Of a stretch of DNA of 64,000 nucleotides, positions 25,473 to 57,928 are shown in pieces (position 1 is the first letter of the stretch; the number at the start of each line of letters is the position of its first letter). The DNA lies in contig CAVQMM010000001.1 of NCBI GenBank assembly GCA_963713615.1, positions 2,560,001 through 2,624,000 of the forward strand. Reading direction: 5' to 3'. This stretch comes from an uncultured Chlamydiae bacterium. GTDB lineage: Bacteria; Chlamydiota; Chlamydiia; Chlamydiales; JAJFMA01. The notes below the pieces were generated by a model that searched no databases, was not told the origin of the DNA, and was given only the letters and a program-made list of their open reading frames with translations. The position numbers were made by a program, and so were the translations under genes.

Positions 25473-25939
25473 TCAAAAAAGCAAGTTTACCAAAACCTAT
25501 TGAAATTGCGGTCCTAGGCTACTGCCTTTGGCAAGCTACCGATCTGGTACGCTCTTGGCTTACAGCTCCAGCGGAAAGATGGGCTTGGATCGCTTTTTTT
25601 ATCTGGTGCATTCCTGTCATTTGGTACCTAGCTATCACCATCCAAGAGCAGCAAATCAAACAATCAACGCCTATTCTTCTTGGTGCAGCGATTGTCGTTG
25701 CCCTCGTCGGTGGCTTAGGGTCTCTGAATATCTTGGGACACATCGGATTAGCTCTGGCGTTGGCGGGCATGCTTCCATTTCGCTGGGAAATCCTTGTCTG
25801 GTTAGCCACGGCGCTGTCTTGGTTGCCCAGTTTTGGGTGGATGATTAAAAGTCTTCCCTTTGCAATTATTCCCATCATCCAAATAGGGTTAGCCTTATTC
25901 GGAAGCGCCTTTTTGTTGTACTGTTGGCGGAGGTCCTAA
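25469..25939 (+). CDS. Small multi-TM protein (exosortase-associated)
   Basis: ATGA overlap with the exosortase; Trp-rich, about 5 hydrophobic segments. Confidence 0.7.
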   Translation: MIKKASLPKPIEIAVLGYCLWQATDLVRSWLTAPAERWAWIAFFIWCIPVIWYLAITIQEQQIKQSTPILLGAAIVVALVGGLGSLNILGHIGLALALAGMLPFRWEILVWLATALSWLPSFGWMIKSLPFAIIPIIQIGLALFGSAFLLYCWRRS

Positions 25940-26622
25940 TATGCAACAGACCGGTCGTACAATAGCACTATGGATAGGGCTAGCTGTGGCGGTAGTCCTG
26001 GGGCTTCTATGGCAATTCGCACCTTTAACAGACGCCAAGAGCAGGCTGCAGGCCCTTCCCTTGAATGGCCCTAGTTTTATTGGTCAAGATATCGCTCTTT
26101 CCGATTGGGAAAAAGGCTATTTTAAAAATGTCAATGTTCTCAAACGCGTCTACACCATCGGTAAGAAGACGTTGTTTGTCACAGCGTTAGATGGAACGCT
26201 AAATCGCCACGTGGTTCACGATCCCCTATATTGCTTCCGAGGCAGTGGCTATGAGGTCGCTAGCGAAAAAACTATCGATCTGCCAGATGGTGGCTCCGTC
26301 GCTTTCTTAAAGTTGATTAAGAACAATTCAGAACAAGATGCCATGTATTGGTTCACAAATGGCCAGACAACGTACGATAGCCCCTTACGCTATTGGTGGC
26401 AGGCAACTCTGCGACGCCTCACGCTAGGCATGTCTGGGAAAGAGCCCATTTTGATCGTCGTTCAGCCCATTGACGACCACCCTCTCGACTGGAAAGAGGT
26501 CGTGCACTACTTCCCTCAGCTTCTCACGCTATAAAAAGCTTCACAAACGCTCTAGGCTTATCTTTCAATGCTTTAAGATCTCACAATCGTGTTGAATCGT
26601 TTTCTTCGTTTTGTAAATGTCC
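25534..26622 (+). repeat. Left copy of ~1.09-kb direct repeat (partner 39724-40812)
   Basis: Base-by-base match at offset 14190; only four differences seen in the core (25849, 25876, 26099, 26439), more at the edges. Confidence 0.95.
25941..26534 (+). CDS. Exosortase-associated EpsI-like protein
   Basis: N-terminal TM, HDPLYCFRGSGY (H.P..C..G.G motif), YWF; downstream of the exosortase. Confidence 0.75.
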   Translation: MQQTGRTIALWIGLAVAVVLGLLWQFAPLTDAKSRLQALPLNGPSFIGQDIALSDWEKGYFKNVNVLKRVYTIGKKTLFVTALDGTLNRHVVHDPLYCFRGSGYEVASEKTIDLPDGGSVAFLKLIKNNSEQDAMYWFTNGQTTYDSPLRYWWQATLRRLTLGMSGKEPILIVVQPIDDHPLDWKEVVHYFPQLLTL

Positions 26623-26678
26623 ATAATTTCCATAAAGTCCATTTATACTGTGGCGAGAATGCACAACATGGACACTAT

Positions 26679-27004
26679 GAGGTAATTGCAAAATTATTTG
26701 AGCCCTTAAGGATCGATTCTTAGGAAAAAAGGTTACCCTCTTTTGCGAGAAGGCGACGCTATAAAGCTCAGATGGCATGCCACCATCTAGTCTGGAAAGA
26801 CAGGCTTTTCTCCCCTCCCAGGCCCGAAGGGTCGATATTGCAACAGGCCATGGCATCGCCATGGTATATGCCAAAACTGTTTTAGCAGCCTGTAGGGCTG
26901 CCATAAAGCGCATGCATAAATGGTGTGTGTAAGCCGACGCCTTATGGCATCCCTACGAGGCTGCTAAATCCATTTCTGACATATACCGTGGCGATGCATG
27001 GCCA
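26679..27004. mobile_element. Truncated family A MITE-like copy abutting the CRISPR array
   Basis: Starts GAGGTAATTGCAAAATT after ...ACAACATGGACACTAT; the second arm is degenerate and ends at the first CRISPR repeat. Confidence 0.8.
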
Positions 27005-27007
27005 AAT

Positions 27008-29085
27008 GTTTCAATCCACGCCCCTGCGTGAGGGGCGACGCCTTAAAGGCGAGCAAAAGGCGAACGCTATCATGTTTCAATCCACGCCCCTGCGTGAGGG
27101 GCGACGGCATGGTCAACTTGCGAGAAGACCAATCGTTAGTTTCAATCCACGCCCCTGCGTGAGGGGCGACCATGACTCCAGAGCAAATTATTAGTGAAGT
27201 GGCTGTTTCAATCCACGCCCCTGCGTGAGGGGCGACATAGCAGCCGAACAACTAGGTCGCAAATGCACCGGTTTCAATCCACGCCCCTGCGTGAGGGGCG
27301 ACGGTAGCACCTTGGACCTGTGCGTTTCTAAAGGCTGTTTCAATCCACGCCCCTGCGTGAGGGGCGACCAGCTAGTAACTGGCTCTGGACAGGGACAAAC
27401 ACGTTTCAATCCACGCCCCTGCGTGAGGGGCGACCTTGTGTGCTAAGAATCCCGAAGTTGGGTTGGGGGTTTCAATCCACGCCCCTGCGTGAGGGGCGAC
27501 TTTGTGTTAACCTACCGGCTTTGCGAATCCATAGTTTCAATCCACGCCCCTGCGTGAGGGGCGACTTTGAGCCGTTGGTAAATGCGTATACCTATCGTGG
27601 TTTCAATCCACGCCCCTGCGTGAGGGGCGACGTAACTAAGTAACAAGCAAGCAAGGAATAAGTAGTTTCAATCCACGCCCCTGCGTGAGGGGCGACAAAC
27701 GAGCACGGTGAAGCGTGCAATATTGGTCAACGTTTCAATCCACGCCCCTGCGTGAGGGGCGACCCAGCGTTTCGCGCAATTCATCGTCCATGTAATGTTT
27801 CAATCCACGCCCCTGCGTGAGGGGCGACGTGTGAAGCGAATTTGTTGCGCAAAGTGTCCACTTGTTTCAATCCACGCCCCTGCGTGAGGGGCGACGTAAA
27901 TACTGGTTGACCACATTACCCTTCCTATGTTTCAATCCACGCCCCTGCGTGAGGGGCGACGTGACGGCTTCTGGGGACCTGTCCACAGCAGCGAGTTTCA
28001 ATCCACGCCCCTGCGTGAGGGGCGACAACGATGTTAGCCTATACATCAGTGCAATAACAGGGCGAGTTTCAATCCACGCCCCTGCGTGAGGGGCGACGCG
28101 GCGTGCTTTGCCGCTTGCCTGGATATCGTGGTTTCAATCCACGCCCCTGCGTGAGGGGCGACGTCCCGATGCTTATTCCCGCTTGGTTGTTACTGGTTTC
28201 AATCCACGCCCCTGCGTGAGGGGCGACACACCGCAGCCACCGCAGCAACTAGCTGCATAGTTTCAATCCACGCCCCTGCGTGAGGGGCGACGCCTTTAGC
28301 CTTGGCCTTTTTGCCAGCGTTTCAAGTGTTTCAATCCACGCCCCTGCGTGAGGGGCGACAAACCAGATAGAGTTTGCCTTTAGCGGGAATGATGTTTCAA
28401 TCCACGCCCCTGCGTGAGGGGCGACCCGCCGCCCCCGCCGCCCCAATTGTGACTGCTTGAGTTTCAATCCACGCCCCTGCGTGAGGGGCGACATGACGGA
28501 AGAGTAGCCGTAAGGCCATTATTGATGTTTCAATCCACGCCCCTGCGTGAGGGGCGACCTACCATTTGTTTTTGCAGGTATGGCCCCATTCCTGTTTCAA
28601 TCCACGCCCCTGCGTGAGGGGCGACGATGTTAGCCTATACATCAGTGCAATAACAGGGTTTCAATCCACGCCCCTGCGTGAGGGGCGACGGAAAAGCCGT
28701 CGGTTCATCTTCGATCCACGAAGTTTCAATCCACGCCCCTGCGTGAGGGGCGACCGTAGCCGCTTGGCCCGCGGGAGCCACTGTCGGGTTTCAATCCACG
28801 CCCCTGCGTGAGGGGCGACTGGGAGCCGATTTTGATCTGTTCCAAACCCTATGGTTTCAATCCACGCCCCTGCGTGAGGGGCGACGCTGCTTTGACGCTC
28901 ACCTTACCAAATGGACCGGTGTTTCAATCCACGCCCCTGCGTGAGGGGCGACCTATGCAGTTGAACTTATGGACGACGACATACGGGTTTCAATCCACGC
29001 CCCTGCGTGAGGGGCGACTCAACATTGAATTCAAAGCGCTCAGTGTCCACGTGGTTTCAATCCACGCCCCTGCGTGAGGGGCGAC
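27008..29085 (-). CRISPR. Type I-C CRISPR array, 32 identical 32-bp repeats (GTCGCCCCTCACGCAGGGGCGTGGATTGAAAC), 31 spacers of 32-39 nt
   Basis: Repeats counted by eye; canonical I-C repeat ending ATTGAAAC on the minus strand; adjacent to cas2. Confidence 0.98.
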
Positions 29086-36994: not shown

Positions 36995-37186
36995 CGATTT
37001 GGATCAAACGTCCATGGAATTTACCAACATTACCCTTATTTATCAAGACTAAAGATAATGAATTAATTATTCTACATACAGTCTATAGTTAATCTTATAT
37101 TTTTTAGTTATGCTTGTTGAGCTGTTGTGTCAGAGACTATCAACAAACGCAAAATACTCTCACGTCTGACCAAACTTGAGATTATG

Positions 37187-37346
37187 GGCCTTGTTCACCT
37201 TTACGGTCAGAATTTCGGTCGGACGAAAAAGGTCGGATGTCGTGGTTTGTGACGAGGGCATAGCGCCAGCTATGTCCGAGGAGCAAAACGCGACAGACGA
37301 TCCTTTTGCAGTCGACCGAAAACTGACCGCAAAGGTGAATAAGGCC
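37187..37346. repeat. Palindromic intergenic element (family D)
   Basis: GGCCTTGTTCACCTTTACGGTCAG...CTGACCGCAAAGGTGAATAAGGCC long imperfect inverted repeat. Confidence 0.7.
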
Positions 37347-39723: not shown

Positions 39724-40129
39724 AGTTACCGATCCGGTATGCTCTTGGCTTACGGCTCCAGCGGAAAGATGGGCTTGGATCGCTTTTTTTATCTGGTGCA
39801 TTCCTGTCATTTGGTACCTAGCTATCACCATCCAAGAGCAGCAAATCAAACAATCAACGCCTATTCTTCTTGGTGCAGCGATTGTCGTTGCCCTCGTCGG
39901 TGGCTTAGGGTCTCTGAATATCTTGGGACACATCGGATTAGCTCTGGCGTTGGCGGGCATGCTTCCATTTCGCTGGGAAATCCTTGTCTGGTTAGCCACG
40001 GCGCTGTCTTGGTTGCCCAGTTTTGGGTGGATGATTAAGAGTCTTCCCTTTGCAATTATTCCCATAATCCAAATAGGGTTAGCCTTATTCGGAAGCGCCT
40101 TTTTGTTGTACTGTTGGCGGAGGTCCTAA
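39724..40129 (+). pseudogene. 5'-truncated duplicate of the 25469-25939 membrane protein gene
   Basis: Identical protein from SWLTAPAERW onward; lacks the first ~22 codons. Confidence 0.8.
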
Positions 40130-40130
40130 T

Positions 40131-40724
40131 ATGCAACAGACCGGTCGTACAATAGCACTATGGATAGGGCTAGCTGTGGCGGTAGTCCTGGGGCTTCTAT
40201 GGCAATTCGCACCTTTAACAGACGCCAAGAGCAGGCTGCAGGCCCTTCCCTTGAATGGCCCTAGTTTTATTGGTCAAGATATCGCTCTCTCCGATTGGGA
40301 AAAAGGCTATTTTAAAAATGTCAATGTTCTCAAACGCGTCTACACCATCGGTAAGAAGACGTTGTTTGTCACAGCGTTAGATGGAACGCTAAATCGCCAC
40401 GTGGTTCACGATCCCCTATATTGCTTCCGAGGCAGTGGCTATGAGGTCGCTAGCGAAAAAACTATCGATCTGCCAGATGGTGGCTCCGTCGCTTTCTTAA
40501 AGTTGATTAAGAACAATTCAGAACAAGATGCCATGTATTGGTTCACAAATGGCCAGACAACGTACGATAGCCCCTTACGCTATTGGTGGCAGGCAACTCT
40601 GCGACGCCTCACGCTAGGCATGTCTGGGGAAGAGCCCATTTTGATCGTCGTTCAGCCCATTGACGACCACCCTCTCGACTGGAAAGAGGTCGTGCACTAC
40701 TTCCCTCAGCTTCTCACGCTATAA
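40131..40724 (+). CDS. Second copy of the EpsI-like protein
   Basis: 197 aa, identical to 25941-26534 except one K->E change (GMSGEEP). Confidence 0.8.
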   Translation: MQQTGRTIALWIGLAVAVVLGLLWQFAPLTDAKSRLQALPLNGPSFIGQDIALSDWEKGYFKNVNVLKRVYTIGKKTLFVTALDGTLNRHVVHDPLYCFRGSGYEVASEKTIDLPDGGSVAFLKLIKNNSEQDAMYWFTNGQTTYDSPLRYWWQATLRRLTLGMSGEEPILIVVQPIDDHPLDWKEVVHYFPQLLTL

Positions 40725-40816
40725 AAAGCTTCACAAACGCTCTAGGCCTATTTTTCAATGCTTAAGGACCTCACAATCGTGTTGAATCGTTTTCTTTGTT
40801 TTGTAAATGTCCCTAG

Positions 40817-43362
40817 GAGGTAATTGCAAAATTATTTGAGCCTTTAAGGATAGATTCTTAGGAAAAAAGGTTACCTTTTTTTGTGAGAAGGCGATTCTGG
40901 AAAGCTCAAATGGCATGGCACTATCTAGTCTGGAAAGACAGGCTTTTCTCCCCTCCCAGGCCCGAAGGGTCGATATTGCAACAGGCCATGGCATCGCCAT
41001 GGTATATGCCAAAACGGTTTTAGCAGCCTGTAGGGCTGCCATAAAACGTCAGTATTCACACGCTATTTATACAAGCGCCTTATGGCAGCCCTACAGGCTG
41101 CGAAATCCCTTCCTGGCATATACCATGGCGATGCCATGGCCTGTTGCAATATCGACCCTTCGGGCCTGCGAAGGGAATGGCTCTCTCTTCACCGGCATCC
41201 GATTTTCAGGAAATTGACTTCGGAAAATCGGACTTCTGCAATTACCTCCTATGGACAACATGAACACTATGAGGTAATTGCAAAATTATTTGAGCCCTTA
41301 AGGATCGATTCTTAGGAAAAAAAGGTTACCTTTTTTTTGCGAGAAGGCGGTTCTGGAGAGCTCAGATGGCATGCCACTATCTCGTCTGGAAAGACAGGCT
41401 TTTCTCCCCTCCCAGGCCCGAAGGGTCGATATTGCAACAGGCCATGGCATCGCCATGGTATATGCCAAAACGGTTTTAGCAGCCTGTAGGGCTGCCATAA
41501 AACGTCAGTATTCACACGCTATTTATACAAGCGCCTTATGGCAGCCCTACAGGCTGCGAAATCCCTTCCTGGCATATACCATGGCGATGCCATGGCCTGT
41601 TGCAATATCGACCCTTCGGGCCTGGGAAGGGAATGGCTCTCTCTTCACCGGCATCCGATTTTCAGGAAATTGACTTCGGAAAATCGGACTTCTGCAATTA
41701 CCTCCTATGGACAACATCAACACTATGAGGTAATTGCAAAATTATTTGAGCCCTTAAGGATCGATTCTTAGGAAAAAAAGGTTACCTTTTTTTGTGAGAA
41801 GGCGACGCTATAAAGCTCAGATGGCATGCCACCATCTAGTCTGGAAAGACAGGCTTTTCTCCCCTCCCAGGCCCGAAGGGTCGATATTGCAACAGGCCAT
41901 GGCATCGCCATGGTATATGCCAAAACGGTTTTAGCAGCCTGTAGGGCTGCCATAAAACGTCAGTATTCACACGCTATTTATACAAGCGCCTTATGGCAGC
42001 CCTACAGGCTGCGAAATCCCTTCCTGGCATATACCATGGCGATGCCATGGCCTGTTGCAATATCGACCCTTCGGGCCTGGGAAGGGAATGGCTCTCTCTT
42101 CACCGGCATCCGATTTTCAGGAAATTGACTTCGGAAAATCGGACTTCTGCAATTACCTCCTATGGACAACATGGACACTATGAGGTAATTGCAAAATTAT
42201 TTGAGCCCTTAAGGATCGATTCTTAGGAAAAAAAGGTTACCTTTTTTTGTGAGAAGGCGACGCTATAAAGCTCAGATGGCATGCCACCATCTAGTCTGGA
42301 AAGACAGGCTTTTCTCCCCTCCCAGGCCCGAAGGGTCGATATTGCAACAGGCCATGGCATCGCCATGGTATATGCCAAAACGGTTTTAGCAGCCTGTAGG
42401 GCTGCCATAAAACGTCAGTATTCACACGCTATTTATACAAGCGCCTTATGGCAGCCCTACAGGCTGCGAAATCCCTTCCGGCCTGGGAAGGGAATGGCTC
42501 TCTCTTCACCGGCATCCGATTTTCAGGAAATTGACTTCGGAAAATCGGACTTCTGCAATTACCTCCTATGGACAACATGGACACTATGAGGTAATTGCAA
42601 AATTATTTGAGCCCTTAAGGATCGATTCTTAGGAAAAAAAGGTTACCCTCTTTTGTGAGAAGGCGACGCTATAAAGCTCAGATGGCATGCCACCATCTAG
42701 TCTGGAAAGACAGGCTTTTCTCCCCTCCCAGGCCCGAAGGGTCGATATTGCAACAGGCCATGGCATCGCCATGGTATATGCCAAAACGGTTTTAGCAGCC
42801 TGTAGGGCTGCCATAAAACGTCAGTATTCACACGCTATTTATACAAGCGCCTTATGGCAGCCCTACAGGCTGCGAAATCCCTTCCTGGCATATACCATGG
42901 CGATGCCATGGCCTGTTGCAATATCGACCCTTCGGGCCTGGGAAGGGAATGGCTCTCTCTTCACCGGCATCCGATTTTCAGGAAATTGACTTCGGAAAAT
43001 CGGACTTCTGCAATTACCTCCTATGGACAACATGGACACTATGAGGTAATTGCAAAATTATTTGAGCCCTTAAGGATCGATTCTTAGGAAAAAAGGTTAC
43101 CCTCTTTTGCGAGAAGGCGACGCTATAAAGCTCAGATGGCATGCCACCATCTAGTCTGGAAAGACAGGCTTTTCTCCCCTCCCAGGCCCGAAGGGTCGAT
43201 ATTGCAACAAGCCATGGCATCGCCATGGTATATGCCAAGACGGTTTTAGCAGCCTGTAGGGCTGCCATAAAACGTCAGTATTCACACGCTATTTATACAA
43301 GCGCCTTATGGCAGCCCTACAGGCTGCGAAACCCCTTCCTGGCATATACCATGGCGATGCCA
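40817..43362. mobile_element. Head-to-tail tandem array of six family A MITE-like units
   Basis: Units start at 40817, 41271, 41727, 42182 (internal ~49-bp deletion), 42588 and 43043 (truncated); joined by 22-bp linkers CTATGGACAACAT(GG/GA/CA)ACACTAT. Confidence 0.9.
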
Positions 43363-43454
43363 CATAGGCCTCAACCTAACAAGCCCTTTGGGCTTATGTT
43401 TCAATGCTTTAAGGCTTTCTAGGCAACTCAAAAGGTTGGCTGGCGCAATTTCCT

Positions 43455-43482
43455 ATGTGGCGCAGTCATTCCATGACTGCGA
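43455..43482. repeat. Short REP-like hairpin (family E)
   Basis: ATGTGGCGCAGTCATTCCATGACTGCGA, identical at 52617-52644. Confidence 0.7.
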
Positions 43483-43546
43483 ACAATCCGTTGCAATTGA
43501 GTTACTTGGAAGCCCTCGGTGGTGGAGAAGATCGCAAACCCTCAGA

Positions 43547-44500
43547 TTATTCTCTTACCTTGCGCTCAAAGAAGGCCACTGTGGTGTAATCAGAGATATG
43601 CTGAACCGCCAGGGTCCATGAACCTTCTACAGGGATTTGTTCCCAGTTCCTACTTCGCTCCTCAAAGAAGGAACTCTCTGCCATAACATATAAATCTGCA
43701 CCCTCAGAAGTCTCCACTCCAGCATAAATTAAATAGTTACCCGCAAAACACTGGAGGGCTATGGTCGCTACAGGACCACATGCATGAGTTGGCTTTGGTG
43801 GCCAAGCGAGAAGCAAAACGTCTTTCGAATCAGCTCTTTGCAAATGCTCGACAAAGTCGTCTTCTGTAGTATGATCAAAAAAGCTCTCTTCTTTGCTATA
43901 TGCCCCTGCCTTCTCATAGCCCTGCACGTTAATTCCATTTTGCTCAAGAAAACAAGCCACATATCCACGTCCACAACCAACATCATGAACAACATTAGCG
44001 GAATCTTTGCTAACCTGAGGAAAAGTACTCAAAATTGCAACAGGAAGTCCTCTGCCAGGCTTAAACCAGGAATTTCCACCATAGCTACCAACCAACCTAG
44101 GAAGCTGCCCGCGTTGCTCTGCAGTAGGCTCGACTTCCGGATTTTTATTGATGTTTGGAAATAATAATCCTGCCATCAAGTCTTTATAATATGCAACCCG
44201 TTCGGTTTCTGGATTGGGCTTCATCCCTGGATGTTCTATGTTATATGGATAGATAGCATCCTTAAAAACCATATTGAGAACTTCATAGTTTAACGAATTC
44301 AATTTTCCATAAGTGTATAGTTCAAAAACCTGCTTTATTGCATTATTATAACAAATTTTTTCGCTGTCATTTAAAACGGTTTCGAGAATTTTTGCATAAA
44401 AAACCATTGCGTTCATAACGGATTTACGATTATGTTGTAAATCTCCAGTTCTTACATTTCCCGGAACAATTTCTATGTTATTAAAACCAAGTTCCATCAC
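43547..44500 (-). CDS. Class I SAM-dependent methyltransferase-like protein
   Basis: HDVGCGRGY motif I, LLLAWPP; AT-rich. Confidence 0.65.
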   Translation of the reverse strand: MMELGFNNIEIVPGNVRTGDLQHNRKSVMNAMVFYAKILETVLNDSEKICYNNAIKQVFELYTYGKLNSLNYEVLNMVFKDAIYPYNIEHPGMKPNPETERVAYYKDLMAGLLFPNINKNPEVEPTAEQRGQLPRLVGSYGGNSWFKPGRGLPVAILSTFPQVSKDSANVVHDVGCGRGYVACFLEQNGINVQGYEKAGAYSKEESFFDHTTEDDFVEHLQRADSKDVLLLAWPPKPTHACGPVATIALQCFAGNYLIYAGVETSEGADLYVMAESSFFEERSRNWEQIPVEGSWTLAVQHISDYTTVAFFERKVRE

Positions 44501-57840: not shown

Positions 57841-57928
57841 ATGGACTAATTGGACGAACTGGACTGAATGGACAAATTGGACAAAAGTCCATTTTTGTCC
57901 AATTCGTCCATTCGGTCCAGTTCGTCCA
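57841..57928. repeat. GGAC/GTCC 9-mer palindromic repeat (family C) between convergent genes
   Basis: Five TGGAC units at 9-nt period followed by five GTCC units. Confidence 0.8.

What the first reader, a model, noticed from the sequence alone, without database searches (positions are those of the whole stretch)
40817..43362. Head-to-tail array of six ~455-bp hairpin-forming MITE-like units
Seen: each unit has TIRs (GAGGTAATTGCA...TGCAATTACCTC), a ~100-bp-arm internal palindrome and a second hairpin (TCCGATTTTC...GAAAATCGGA), and is joined to the next by a constant 22-bp linker with CTAT at both ends; the first unit is preceded by CTAG. Units differ by SNPs, one ~49-bp deletion and a truncated last copy, so they are not identical copies. 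Known: IS5-family ends and 4-bp YTAR-type targets look like this. Long tandem MITE arrays are unusual, suggesting rolling-circle or unequal-crossover amplification, or a structured ncRNA array.
Basis: partly seen in the sequence, partly recalled or inferred. Interest (0 to 1): 0.7.

Follow-up and report, generated by a model that had tools for sequence, protein, structure and literature searches.

The report
Mini-transposon tandem array in environmental chlamydia
The six head-to-tail repeats are copies of a very common non-coding mini-transposon with the ends of an IS1182-family insertion sequence; it lands in 9-base repeat hairpins, and two landings in one such hairpin were likely expanded by recombination into this array, a small bacterial echo of how satellite DNA is thought to start.

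Summary
The array is real: six units, 40817-43362, with 22-bp linkers. The unit is one of over 100 genomic copies of a MITE (245 exact 12-bp ends). Its partner is not IS5 but an IS1182-family element of 1,432-1,459 bp with the same ends, found in metagenomes and not found in this genome. Among dispersed copies, 45 of 89 carry target duplications, mostly 4 bp and A/T-rich, not YTAR. The target is GWCN-[4 bp]-NGWC inside a separate family of 9-bp 'GGAC' tandem-repeat hairpins, and the linker is 22 bp (4+18) of that target. The long inner palindrome is a captured REP doublet, 82% like those beside a Y1 transposase. The 'truncated' sixth unit runs into a second nested MITE. Four full-length units form one clade with a neighbour-to-neighbour gradient. 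Three more arrays and three doublets exist in the genome. Best reading: double occupation of one periodic target, then unequal recombination (inferred). Rolling-circle and ncRNA readings are unsupported. The scan earlier noted an IS1182 MITE in another chlamydia-like genome. Known kind; the target rule and satellite-like growth are new.

The parts
40817..41248 (+). Unit 1, family-A MITE (432 bp); left end closest to dispersed genomic copies (96%)
41271..41704 (+). Unit 2 (434 bp)
41727..42159 (+). Unit 3 (433 bp), reference unit for the sub-parts below
42182..42565 (+). Unit 4 (384 bp); 49-bp deletion at 42480 removes most of the right REP arm, between CCCTTC microhomologies
42588..43020 (+). 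Unit 5 (433 bp)
43043..43362 (+). Unit 6, left 320 bp; first 135 bp identical to the copy at 26679; ends at the 11-bp target of family B
41249..41270 (+). Linker 1 (others at 41705-41726, 42160-42181, 42566-42587, 43021-43042): 22 bp of 9-bp GGAC target repeat, 4 + 2x9 bp, CTAT being the duplicated site
   Evidence: same arm sequence in empty hairpins
41727..41743 (+). Left terminal inverted repeat, 16 of 17 bases as in the autonomous IS1182-family elements
41744..41810 (+). Subterminal hairpin homologous to the region downstream of the transposase gene in L178 and L210
   Evidence: 0 of 2000 shuffles reach the score for either
41860..42087 (.). Captured REP doublet (REPIN-like), 57-bp perfect outer stem, 22-bp inner stem; 82% identical over 219 bp to doublets next to the Y1 transposase gene at C1:3243331-3243843
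42143..42159 (+). Right terminal inverted repeat
43363..43499 (+). Left end of a nested family-B MITE (TIR CATAGGCCTCAACCTAA; usually 309 bp with 11-bp duplication); its right end and unit 6's right end are not in the window
40770..40816 (+). Left flank: start of the GTCC arm of a 9-bp-repeat hairpin, then CTAG; the same flank precedes empty and filled hairpins elsewhere
26679..27007 (+). Related partial family-A copy 14 kb upstream with the same left junction as the linkers; abuts the CRISPR array

Best explanation
The array is six locally amplified copies of a non-autonomous IS1182-family MITE that inserts into 9-bp GGAC repeat hairpins; it likely began as two elements 22 bp apart in one target arm and was likely expanded by unequal recombination or slippage. 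Shown: the unit has IS1182-type ends plus about 67 bp of the IS's downstream end, carries a captured REP doublet, and dispersed copies sit in GWCN-[4 bp]-NGWC sites with duplications. Inferred: a transposase dimer reads the two GWC half-sites; because GWC recurs every 9 bp, one hairpin offers many sites, so neighbouring sites get filled, or two insertion alleles recombine through the 12-bp ACAACATGGACA repeat, giving a dimer with a 4+9n linker; the dimer then grows by homologous exchange. Inferred: the partner transposase has since been lost from, or is not assembled in, this genome. No host function is needed.
For: Family size: 245 exact 12-bp ends; 123 pairs from 326 looser ends. Duplications: 45 of 89 dispersed copies have 4 bp or more (40x4, 4x5, 1x13) against a mean of 5.6, maximum 13, in 2000 random re-pairings. 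Target: GWC at the expected offset at 215 of 245 exact ends, background 2.5% per position; 97 of 138 9-bp-repeat clusters are empty, 36 of them two-armed, so the target exists on its own. Partner: metagenome elements of 1,432 bp (L215, L225) and 1,459 bp (L210) with the same ends in the same 9-bp repeats; DUF772 + DDE_Tnp_1; 34-36% over 95-98% to plasmid proteins annotated IS1182, including ISUnCu17; DDE and Y-R-E-K residues invariant in 6 of 6 aligned. A 48%-identical relative in G281 has 5-bp duplications in GTCC-N5-GGAC at 2 of 2 loci examined. Local growth: units 1, 2, 3, 5 form a clade at 100/99 among 75 copies; left ends grade from generic (unit 1) to identical with the 26679 copy (unit 6). 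Doublets with other linkers: 14, 14 and 37 bp in this genome, 13 bp in G140, 4 bp in G352. The two junction halves of the linker occur separately at window 26679 and C1:3729686.
Against: No relative of the transposase in G000 (tblastn best E 0.03; 0; PF05598 and PF13751 none). 44 of 89 dispersed copies lack a duplication of 4 bp or more. The autonomous L215 and L225 have reverse-complement flanks, not duplications. The array's own left junction is CTAG, not CTAT. The single 13-bp duplication is not above chance (0.15 expected). The three other arrays share one 43-bp linker and some flanks, so there are two independent array origins, not four. The right interior shows no clear likeness to the IS's 5' end beyond the terminal repeat. 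The tree left out units 4 and 6 and ignores gene conversion. No reads span the array.
Confidence: 0.75

Rival explanations
1. The transposase itself made the long direct repeats: it attacked a slipped or cruciform 9-bp hairpin at two distant positions, duplicating 22 bp (or the 43-bp loop in the other arrays) or deleting the loop, as proposed for IS1272; recombination across the long duplication then seeded the array from a single insertion.
For: Of duplication-less dispersed copies with both flanks typed, 25 join the same hairpin type and 3 are mixed; geometry is GGAC-arm|GTCC-arm in 19, the reverse in 5, direct in 7, as expected if the loop was lost. IS1272 (IS1182 family) replaces stem-loops, and loop or stem duplication is modelled in PMC5678879 (passages).
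Against: Double insertion followed by deletion between the two copies gives the same junctions. Only 1 of 89 dispersed copies has a long duplication, none a whole-loop duplication. The outer flanks of arrays A and C do not carry the 43-bp linker.
Confidence: 0.12
2. The copy number is an assembly artefact: a long-read or repeat-resolution error expanded one or two copies.
For: No public run held half of the stretch's words; no contig bridged a linker. Arrays A and C share about 5.5 kb of flank at 99.6-99.8%, which could be misjoined.
Against: Units differ by 2-15 substitutions, one has a clean 49-bp deletion, linkers 1 and 2 share a change, and differences recur in other genomic copies.
Confidence: 0.05
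3. The array is kept because it is transcribed into a structured RNA or acts as a terminator or processing array.
For: Very stable predicted fold; lies 93 bp downstream of an EpsI-like gene on the + strand; 12 distinct compensated pair types in the stems.
Against: No Rfam match; G-U versus A-C variants 9:9 and 8:7 by type, 118:119 by cell in the inner stem; no promoter-like site, one terminator-like site against 1.5 expected; no clear orientation bias (12 sense, 7 antisense); no full-length match in 40 relatives, only weak inner-hairpin hits in 1.
Confidence: 0.04
4. Rolling-circle replication by a HUH (Y1) enzyme acting on the captured REP doublet produced a concatemer that integrated here.
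For: The unit carries REP doublets of a Y1 transposase present in the genome.
Against: Unit boundaries follow the DDE-type ends and target DNA, not the REP; units are polymorphic in a gradient; the 4+9n linker rule holds at several loci.
Confidence: 0.04

Closest known systems
IS1182-family MITEs (e.g. the ISMac2 partners of Methanosarcina acetivorans; PMC3852290, passages incl. Table 4)
   Same: Non-coding, multi-copy, shares mainly the terminal repeats with an IS1182 element; 4-bp duplication.
   Different: 432-752 bp rather than 160-169 bp; over 100 copies; carries a REP doublet and nested elements; strict GWC-N6-GWC target; forms tandem arrays.
IS1272 and other palindrome-targeting IS1182 members (PMC5678879, passages); ISUnCu17
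   Same: Same transposase family; hairpin targets; many junctions without duplication; ISUnCu17-like ends GAGCCTCTTGCAAAA match 11 of 15 bases.
   Different: IS1272 targets were reported to share no sequence and never to be duplicated; here the target has a sequence rule and half the copies have duplications.
REP-targeting IS (IS1397, IS621, IS1594; as reviewed in PMC3184786, passages)
   Same: Insertion into small intergenic palindromic repeats.
   Different: IS621 and IS1594 are IS110 family in that review (IS1397 as IS3 family is recalled); the target here is a 9-bp periodic hairpin, not a GTAG-type REP.
Tandem REPIN clusters of Pseudomonas fluorescens SBW25 (PMC3116915, passages)
   Same: Near-identical palindromic units repeated in tandem with flanking DNA; REP doublets clustered beside a Y1 transposase.
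   Different: Largest REPIN cluster there is four units, about 700 bp; here the unit is a DDE-type MITE wrapping the doublet, 5-9 units, 2.3-4 kb.
Transposon dimers by double insertion expanding to satellites in Drosophila (PMC5932611, abstract and section 10)
   Same: Target preference gives head-to-tail dimers separated by target DNA, which then expand.
   Different: Eukaryote; linker there is one duplication at a single site, here it spans neighbouring sites of a periodic target.

Membership tests
MITE (non-autonomous TIR element) | Terminal inverted repeats | tested here: met
MITE (non-autonomous TIR element) | Many dispersed copies with target duplications | tested here: met
   45 of 89 against 5.6 by chance
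MITE (non-autonomous TIR element) | No transposase of its own | tested here: met
   only 84-102-aa frames over the palindrome; no match to the partner
MITE (non-autonomous TIR element) | Autonomous partner with matching ends | tested here: met
   L215, L225, L210 in metagenomes; not found in this genome
MITE (non-autonomous TIR element) | Mobilisation in trans | not testable with these tools
   needs an assay
IS1182 family (partner) | Single ORF with DUF772 and DDE_Tnp_1 domains, DDE plus Y-R-E-K motif | tested here: met
   the motif's name is recalled
IS1182 family (partner) | Full-length similarity to named IS1182 members | tested here: met
   34% over 95% to ISUnCu17-family proteins, E 3e-55
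IS1182 family (partner) | NCBIfam IS1182 model cut-off | tested here: inconclusive
   best model but 67 bits against 270 (488-position model, 389-aa protein)
   2 of 40; the YTAR rule for IS5 is recalled
   none of 11 DDE_Tnp_1 loci examined in the genome has them; IS5 models below cut-off for the partner
REPIN/RAYT (inner palindrome) | Inverted REP doublet forming a hairpin, clustered beside a Y1 transposase | tested here: met
REPIN/RAYT (inner palindrome) | Neighbouring Y1 enzyme scores as RAYT | tested here: not met
   passes IS200/IS605 cut-off (57.3 of 55), not RAYT (21.9 of 80); so 'REPIN-like'
Known structured RNA family | Rfam match | tested here: not met
   0 at gathering score
Known structured RNA family | Strand-specific G-U preference | tested here: not met
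Known structured RNA family | Expression | not testable with these tools
   no RNA holder listed

The most novel reading that the evidence does not exclude
An undescribed IS1182 subgroup and an undescribed family of 9-bp GGAC repeat hairpins form a transposon/landing-pad pair across environmental Chlamydiota: the enzyme reads two GWC half-sites, the periodic pad lets it stack elements and gain or lose 9-bp units, the ends capture whatever REP a genome has, and the pair generates bacterial satellite DNA.
Probability: 0.3. Interest if true: 0.6.

Novelty: new variant of a known kind. Interest (0 to 1): 0.38.

Why it matters
It gives a sharp, testable target rule (GWCN-[4-5]-NGWC) for an IS1182 subgroup, a family whose palindrome targeting is poorly documented in the papers read, and a worked bacterial case of target preference turning a transposon into tandem arrays. 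It also shows a chlamydial-type genome with about 56 kb of one nested MITE family. No host function is shown, so the interest is for mobile-DNA specialists.

Tried and rejected
Own-genome partner search: PF05598, PF13751, PF13586 none; 31 PF01609 matches, 11 representative loci examined, none bounded by these ends. The 3,055-bp copies are 752-bp copies with an IS66 inside, not the partner. PF01609 loci of four relatives: no matching ends at 12 of 12. Viral scan: 32 single matches, not examined further. PDB: no match. Sequencing runs: no RNA holder listed, best share 0.14; laid contigs gave short pieces only and did not bridge a linker. CRISPR spacers do not match the element: only 15-19-base chance hits. 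Literature searches found no description of this element or of the 9-bp hairpins; the library lacks most subscription journals, the ISfinder review could not be read, and no supplements were read, so absence from print is not established. Papers seen as passages but little used: PMC3733652, PMC3281130.

Full report
Observation. The array is as described: six direct copies between 40817 and 43362 with 454-456-bp spacing, inverted ends, 22-bp linkers and a strong fold. The linkers are not all identical, the long palindrome is a 57-bp plus a 22-bp stem, and unit 6 continues into another element.

Host and family. The genome G000 is 3.97 Mb in 3 contigs, 99% complete. It is inferred to be an environmental chlamydia: 46 of 49 named records carrying the end-plus-target motif are titled Chlamydiae or Parachlamydiales, and an earlier scan note says the same (unchecked). 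The 12-bp end occurs 245 times exactly. Pairing 326 looser ends gave 123 elements; I dropped 11 as chance or broken pairs and set aside 23 array members, leaving 89 dispersed copies, commonest about 750 and 430 bp. The 752-bp form is the 432-bp form plus a nested 309-bp MITE (family B) with an 11-bp duplication in 70 of 84 cases. The 3,055-bp form holds an IS66 as well. Unit 6 stops at family B's target and goes on as a family-B left end.

Target. Of the 89 dispersed copies, 45 have a duplication of 4 bp or more, against 5.6 in random re-pairings; 44 have none. The 4-bp sites are A/T-rich, YTAR in 2 of 40. The site is symmetrical, GWCN-[4]-NGWC; four copies have 5-bp duplications, where the repeat spacing is 10. 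GWC stands at the expected offset at 215 of 245 exact ends. These sites lie in 9-bp GGAC tandem repeats: 184 arrays against 12 in a shuffled genome, 138 clusters, 97 empty, 36 of those two-armed hairpins. Empty hairpins contain the arm AACAT-GGAC-ACTAT-GGAC, so CTAT is the duplicated site and the linker is 4+18 bp of target.

Partner. None in this genome. A metagenome scan (74 stretches) gave complete elements of 1,432 bp (L214/L215, L225) and 1,459 bp (L210), and three with one end plus gene (L168, L178, L234), all in 9-bp repeats. The 389-aa protein has DUF772 and DDE_Tnp_1, scores best but under cut-off with the IS1182 model, matches plasmid proteins annotated IS1182 including ISUnCu17 at 34-36% over nearly full length, and keeps D160, D283, E344. 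Unit bases 18-84 resemble the region behind the transposase gene in L178 and L210 (0 of 2000 shuffles; weaker for L168 and L215, p about 0.04). Relatives occur in 26 of 400 genomes of the phylum; in G281 two of two loci examined have a 5-bp duplication in GTCC-N5-GGAC, while the more distant G105, G286 and G219 elements show no such flanks. The end-plus-target motif occurs in 3 of 3 other genomes of the genus and 7 of 401 in the phylum, around quite different interiors.

Cargo. The inner palindrome is 82% identical to REP doublets clustered behind a Y1 transposase gene at C1:3243331. That enzyme passes the IS200/IS605 cut-off, not the RAYT one, so I call the cargo REPIN-like.

How the array arose. 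Units 1, 2, 3 and 5 form a clade (100/99) among 75 aligned copies; units 4 and 6 were left out by length. They differ by 2-15 substitutions; left ends grade from generic in unit 1 to identity with the copy at 26679 in unit 6. The linker's right half is the left junction at 26679 and its left half is the right junction at C1:3729686; they overlap in ACAACATGGACA. Three other arrays (5, 5, 9 units) share a 43-bp linker that is the middle of a hairpin; they share flanks, so they count as one origin. Doublets with 14, 14 and 37-bp linkers occur in this genome, 13 bp in G140 and 4 bp in G352. I infer a dimer from double occupation of a periodic target, then unequal recombination. This parallels double insertion in Drosophila (PMC5932611, abstract and section 10) and tandem REPIN clusters (PMC3116915, passages). 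A structure-dependent rival, after IS1272 (PMC5678879, passages), explains the duplication-less junctions equally well (25 same-type, 3 mixed) and cannot be excluded.

Against other readings. No Rfam match, equal G-U and A-C variants and no promoter-like site argue against a selected RNA. Unit polymorphism argues against assembly expansion, though no read spans the array.

Verdict. A real, well-explained selfish-DNA structure: a new IS1182-family MITE with a new-looking target rule and satellite-like growth. IS1182 MITEs are known (PMC3852290, passages), and the scan noted one in another chlamydia-like genome. Five literature searches found no description of this element or its 9-bp target; the library is incomplete. 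Interest 0.38.

Noticed in passing
window 25534-27003 and 39724-41141: A 1.1-kb direct duplication (98.6%: 3' part of a membrane gene, an EpsI-like gene, the hairpin flank) brackets a 12.7-kb block holding a type I-C CRISPR-Cas locus and two other genes; the second copy starts mid-gene. Could reflect integration by single crossover.
   Followed up: partly
window 27008-29085: Type I-C CRISPR array, 32 repeats; its cas-distal end abuts the broken MITE copy at 26679-27007; no spacer matches the genome beyond chance.
   Followed up: partly
G000 genome-wide, e.g. window 57843-57927; C1:2014355: Family of 9-bp GGAC tandem-repeat hairpins, two sequence types, also beside the same ends in other Chlamydiae records; origin and mobiliser unknown.
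   Followed up: partly
G000 genome-wide; window 43363: Family B MITE, 309 bp, 11-bp duplication of a palindrome in the REP arm, 84 paired copies; CAT-start ends suggest IS4 family (recalled); partner not sought.
   Followed up: partly
G000 C1:470830-476707 and 2280303-2285872: About 5.5 kb of flank shared at 99.6-99.8% between two of the other arrays; segmental duplication or misjoin.
   Followed up: no
G000 C1:3256585-3257178 (L016): A RAYT (83.7 bits, cut-off 80) flanked by tandem REPs of the type found inside family B, 367 word matches; IS66 and IS1634 copies sit inside these REPs in several elements.
   Followed up: partly
G000 C1:3729315-3729686: A 372-bp fold-back copy with two right ends, likely from exchange between the inverted arms.
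   Followed up: no
window 43547-44500: 317-aa ORF with no NCBIfam match, lying between two halves of a third REP type (43457 and 44634) just after the array.
   Followed up: no
window 37185-37346: Another multi-copy hairpin repeat of about 160-180 bp, found at high depth in the laid runs.
   Followed up: no
G281 (control): 113 forward matches to the reversed pattern, a 9-bp-period CAGG repeat, all on one strand; probably one long tandem tract.
   Followed up: no
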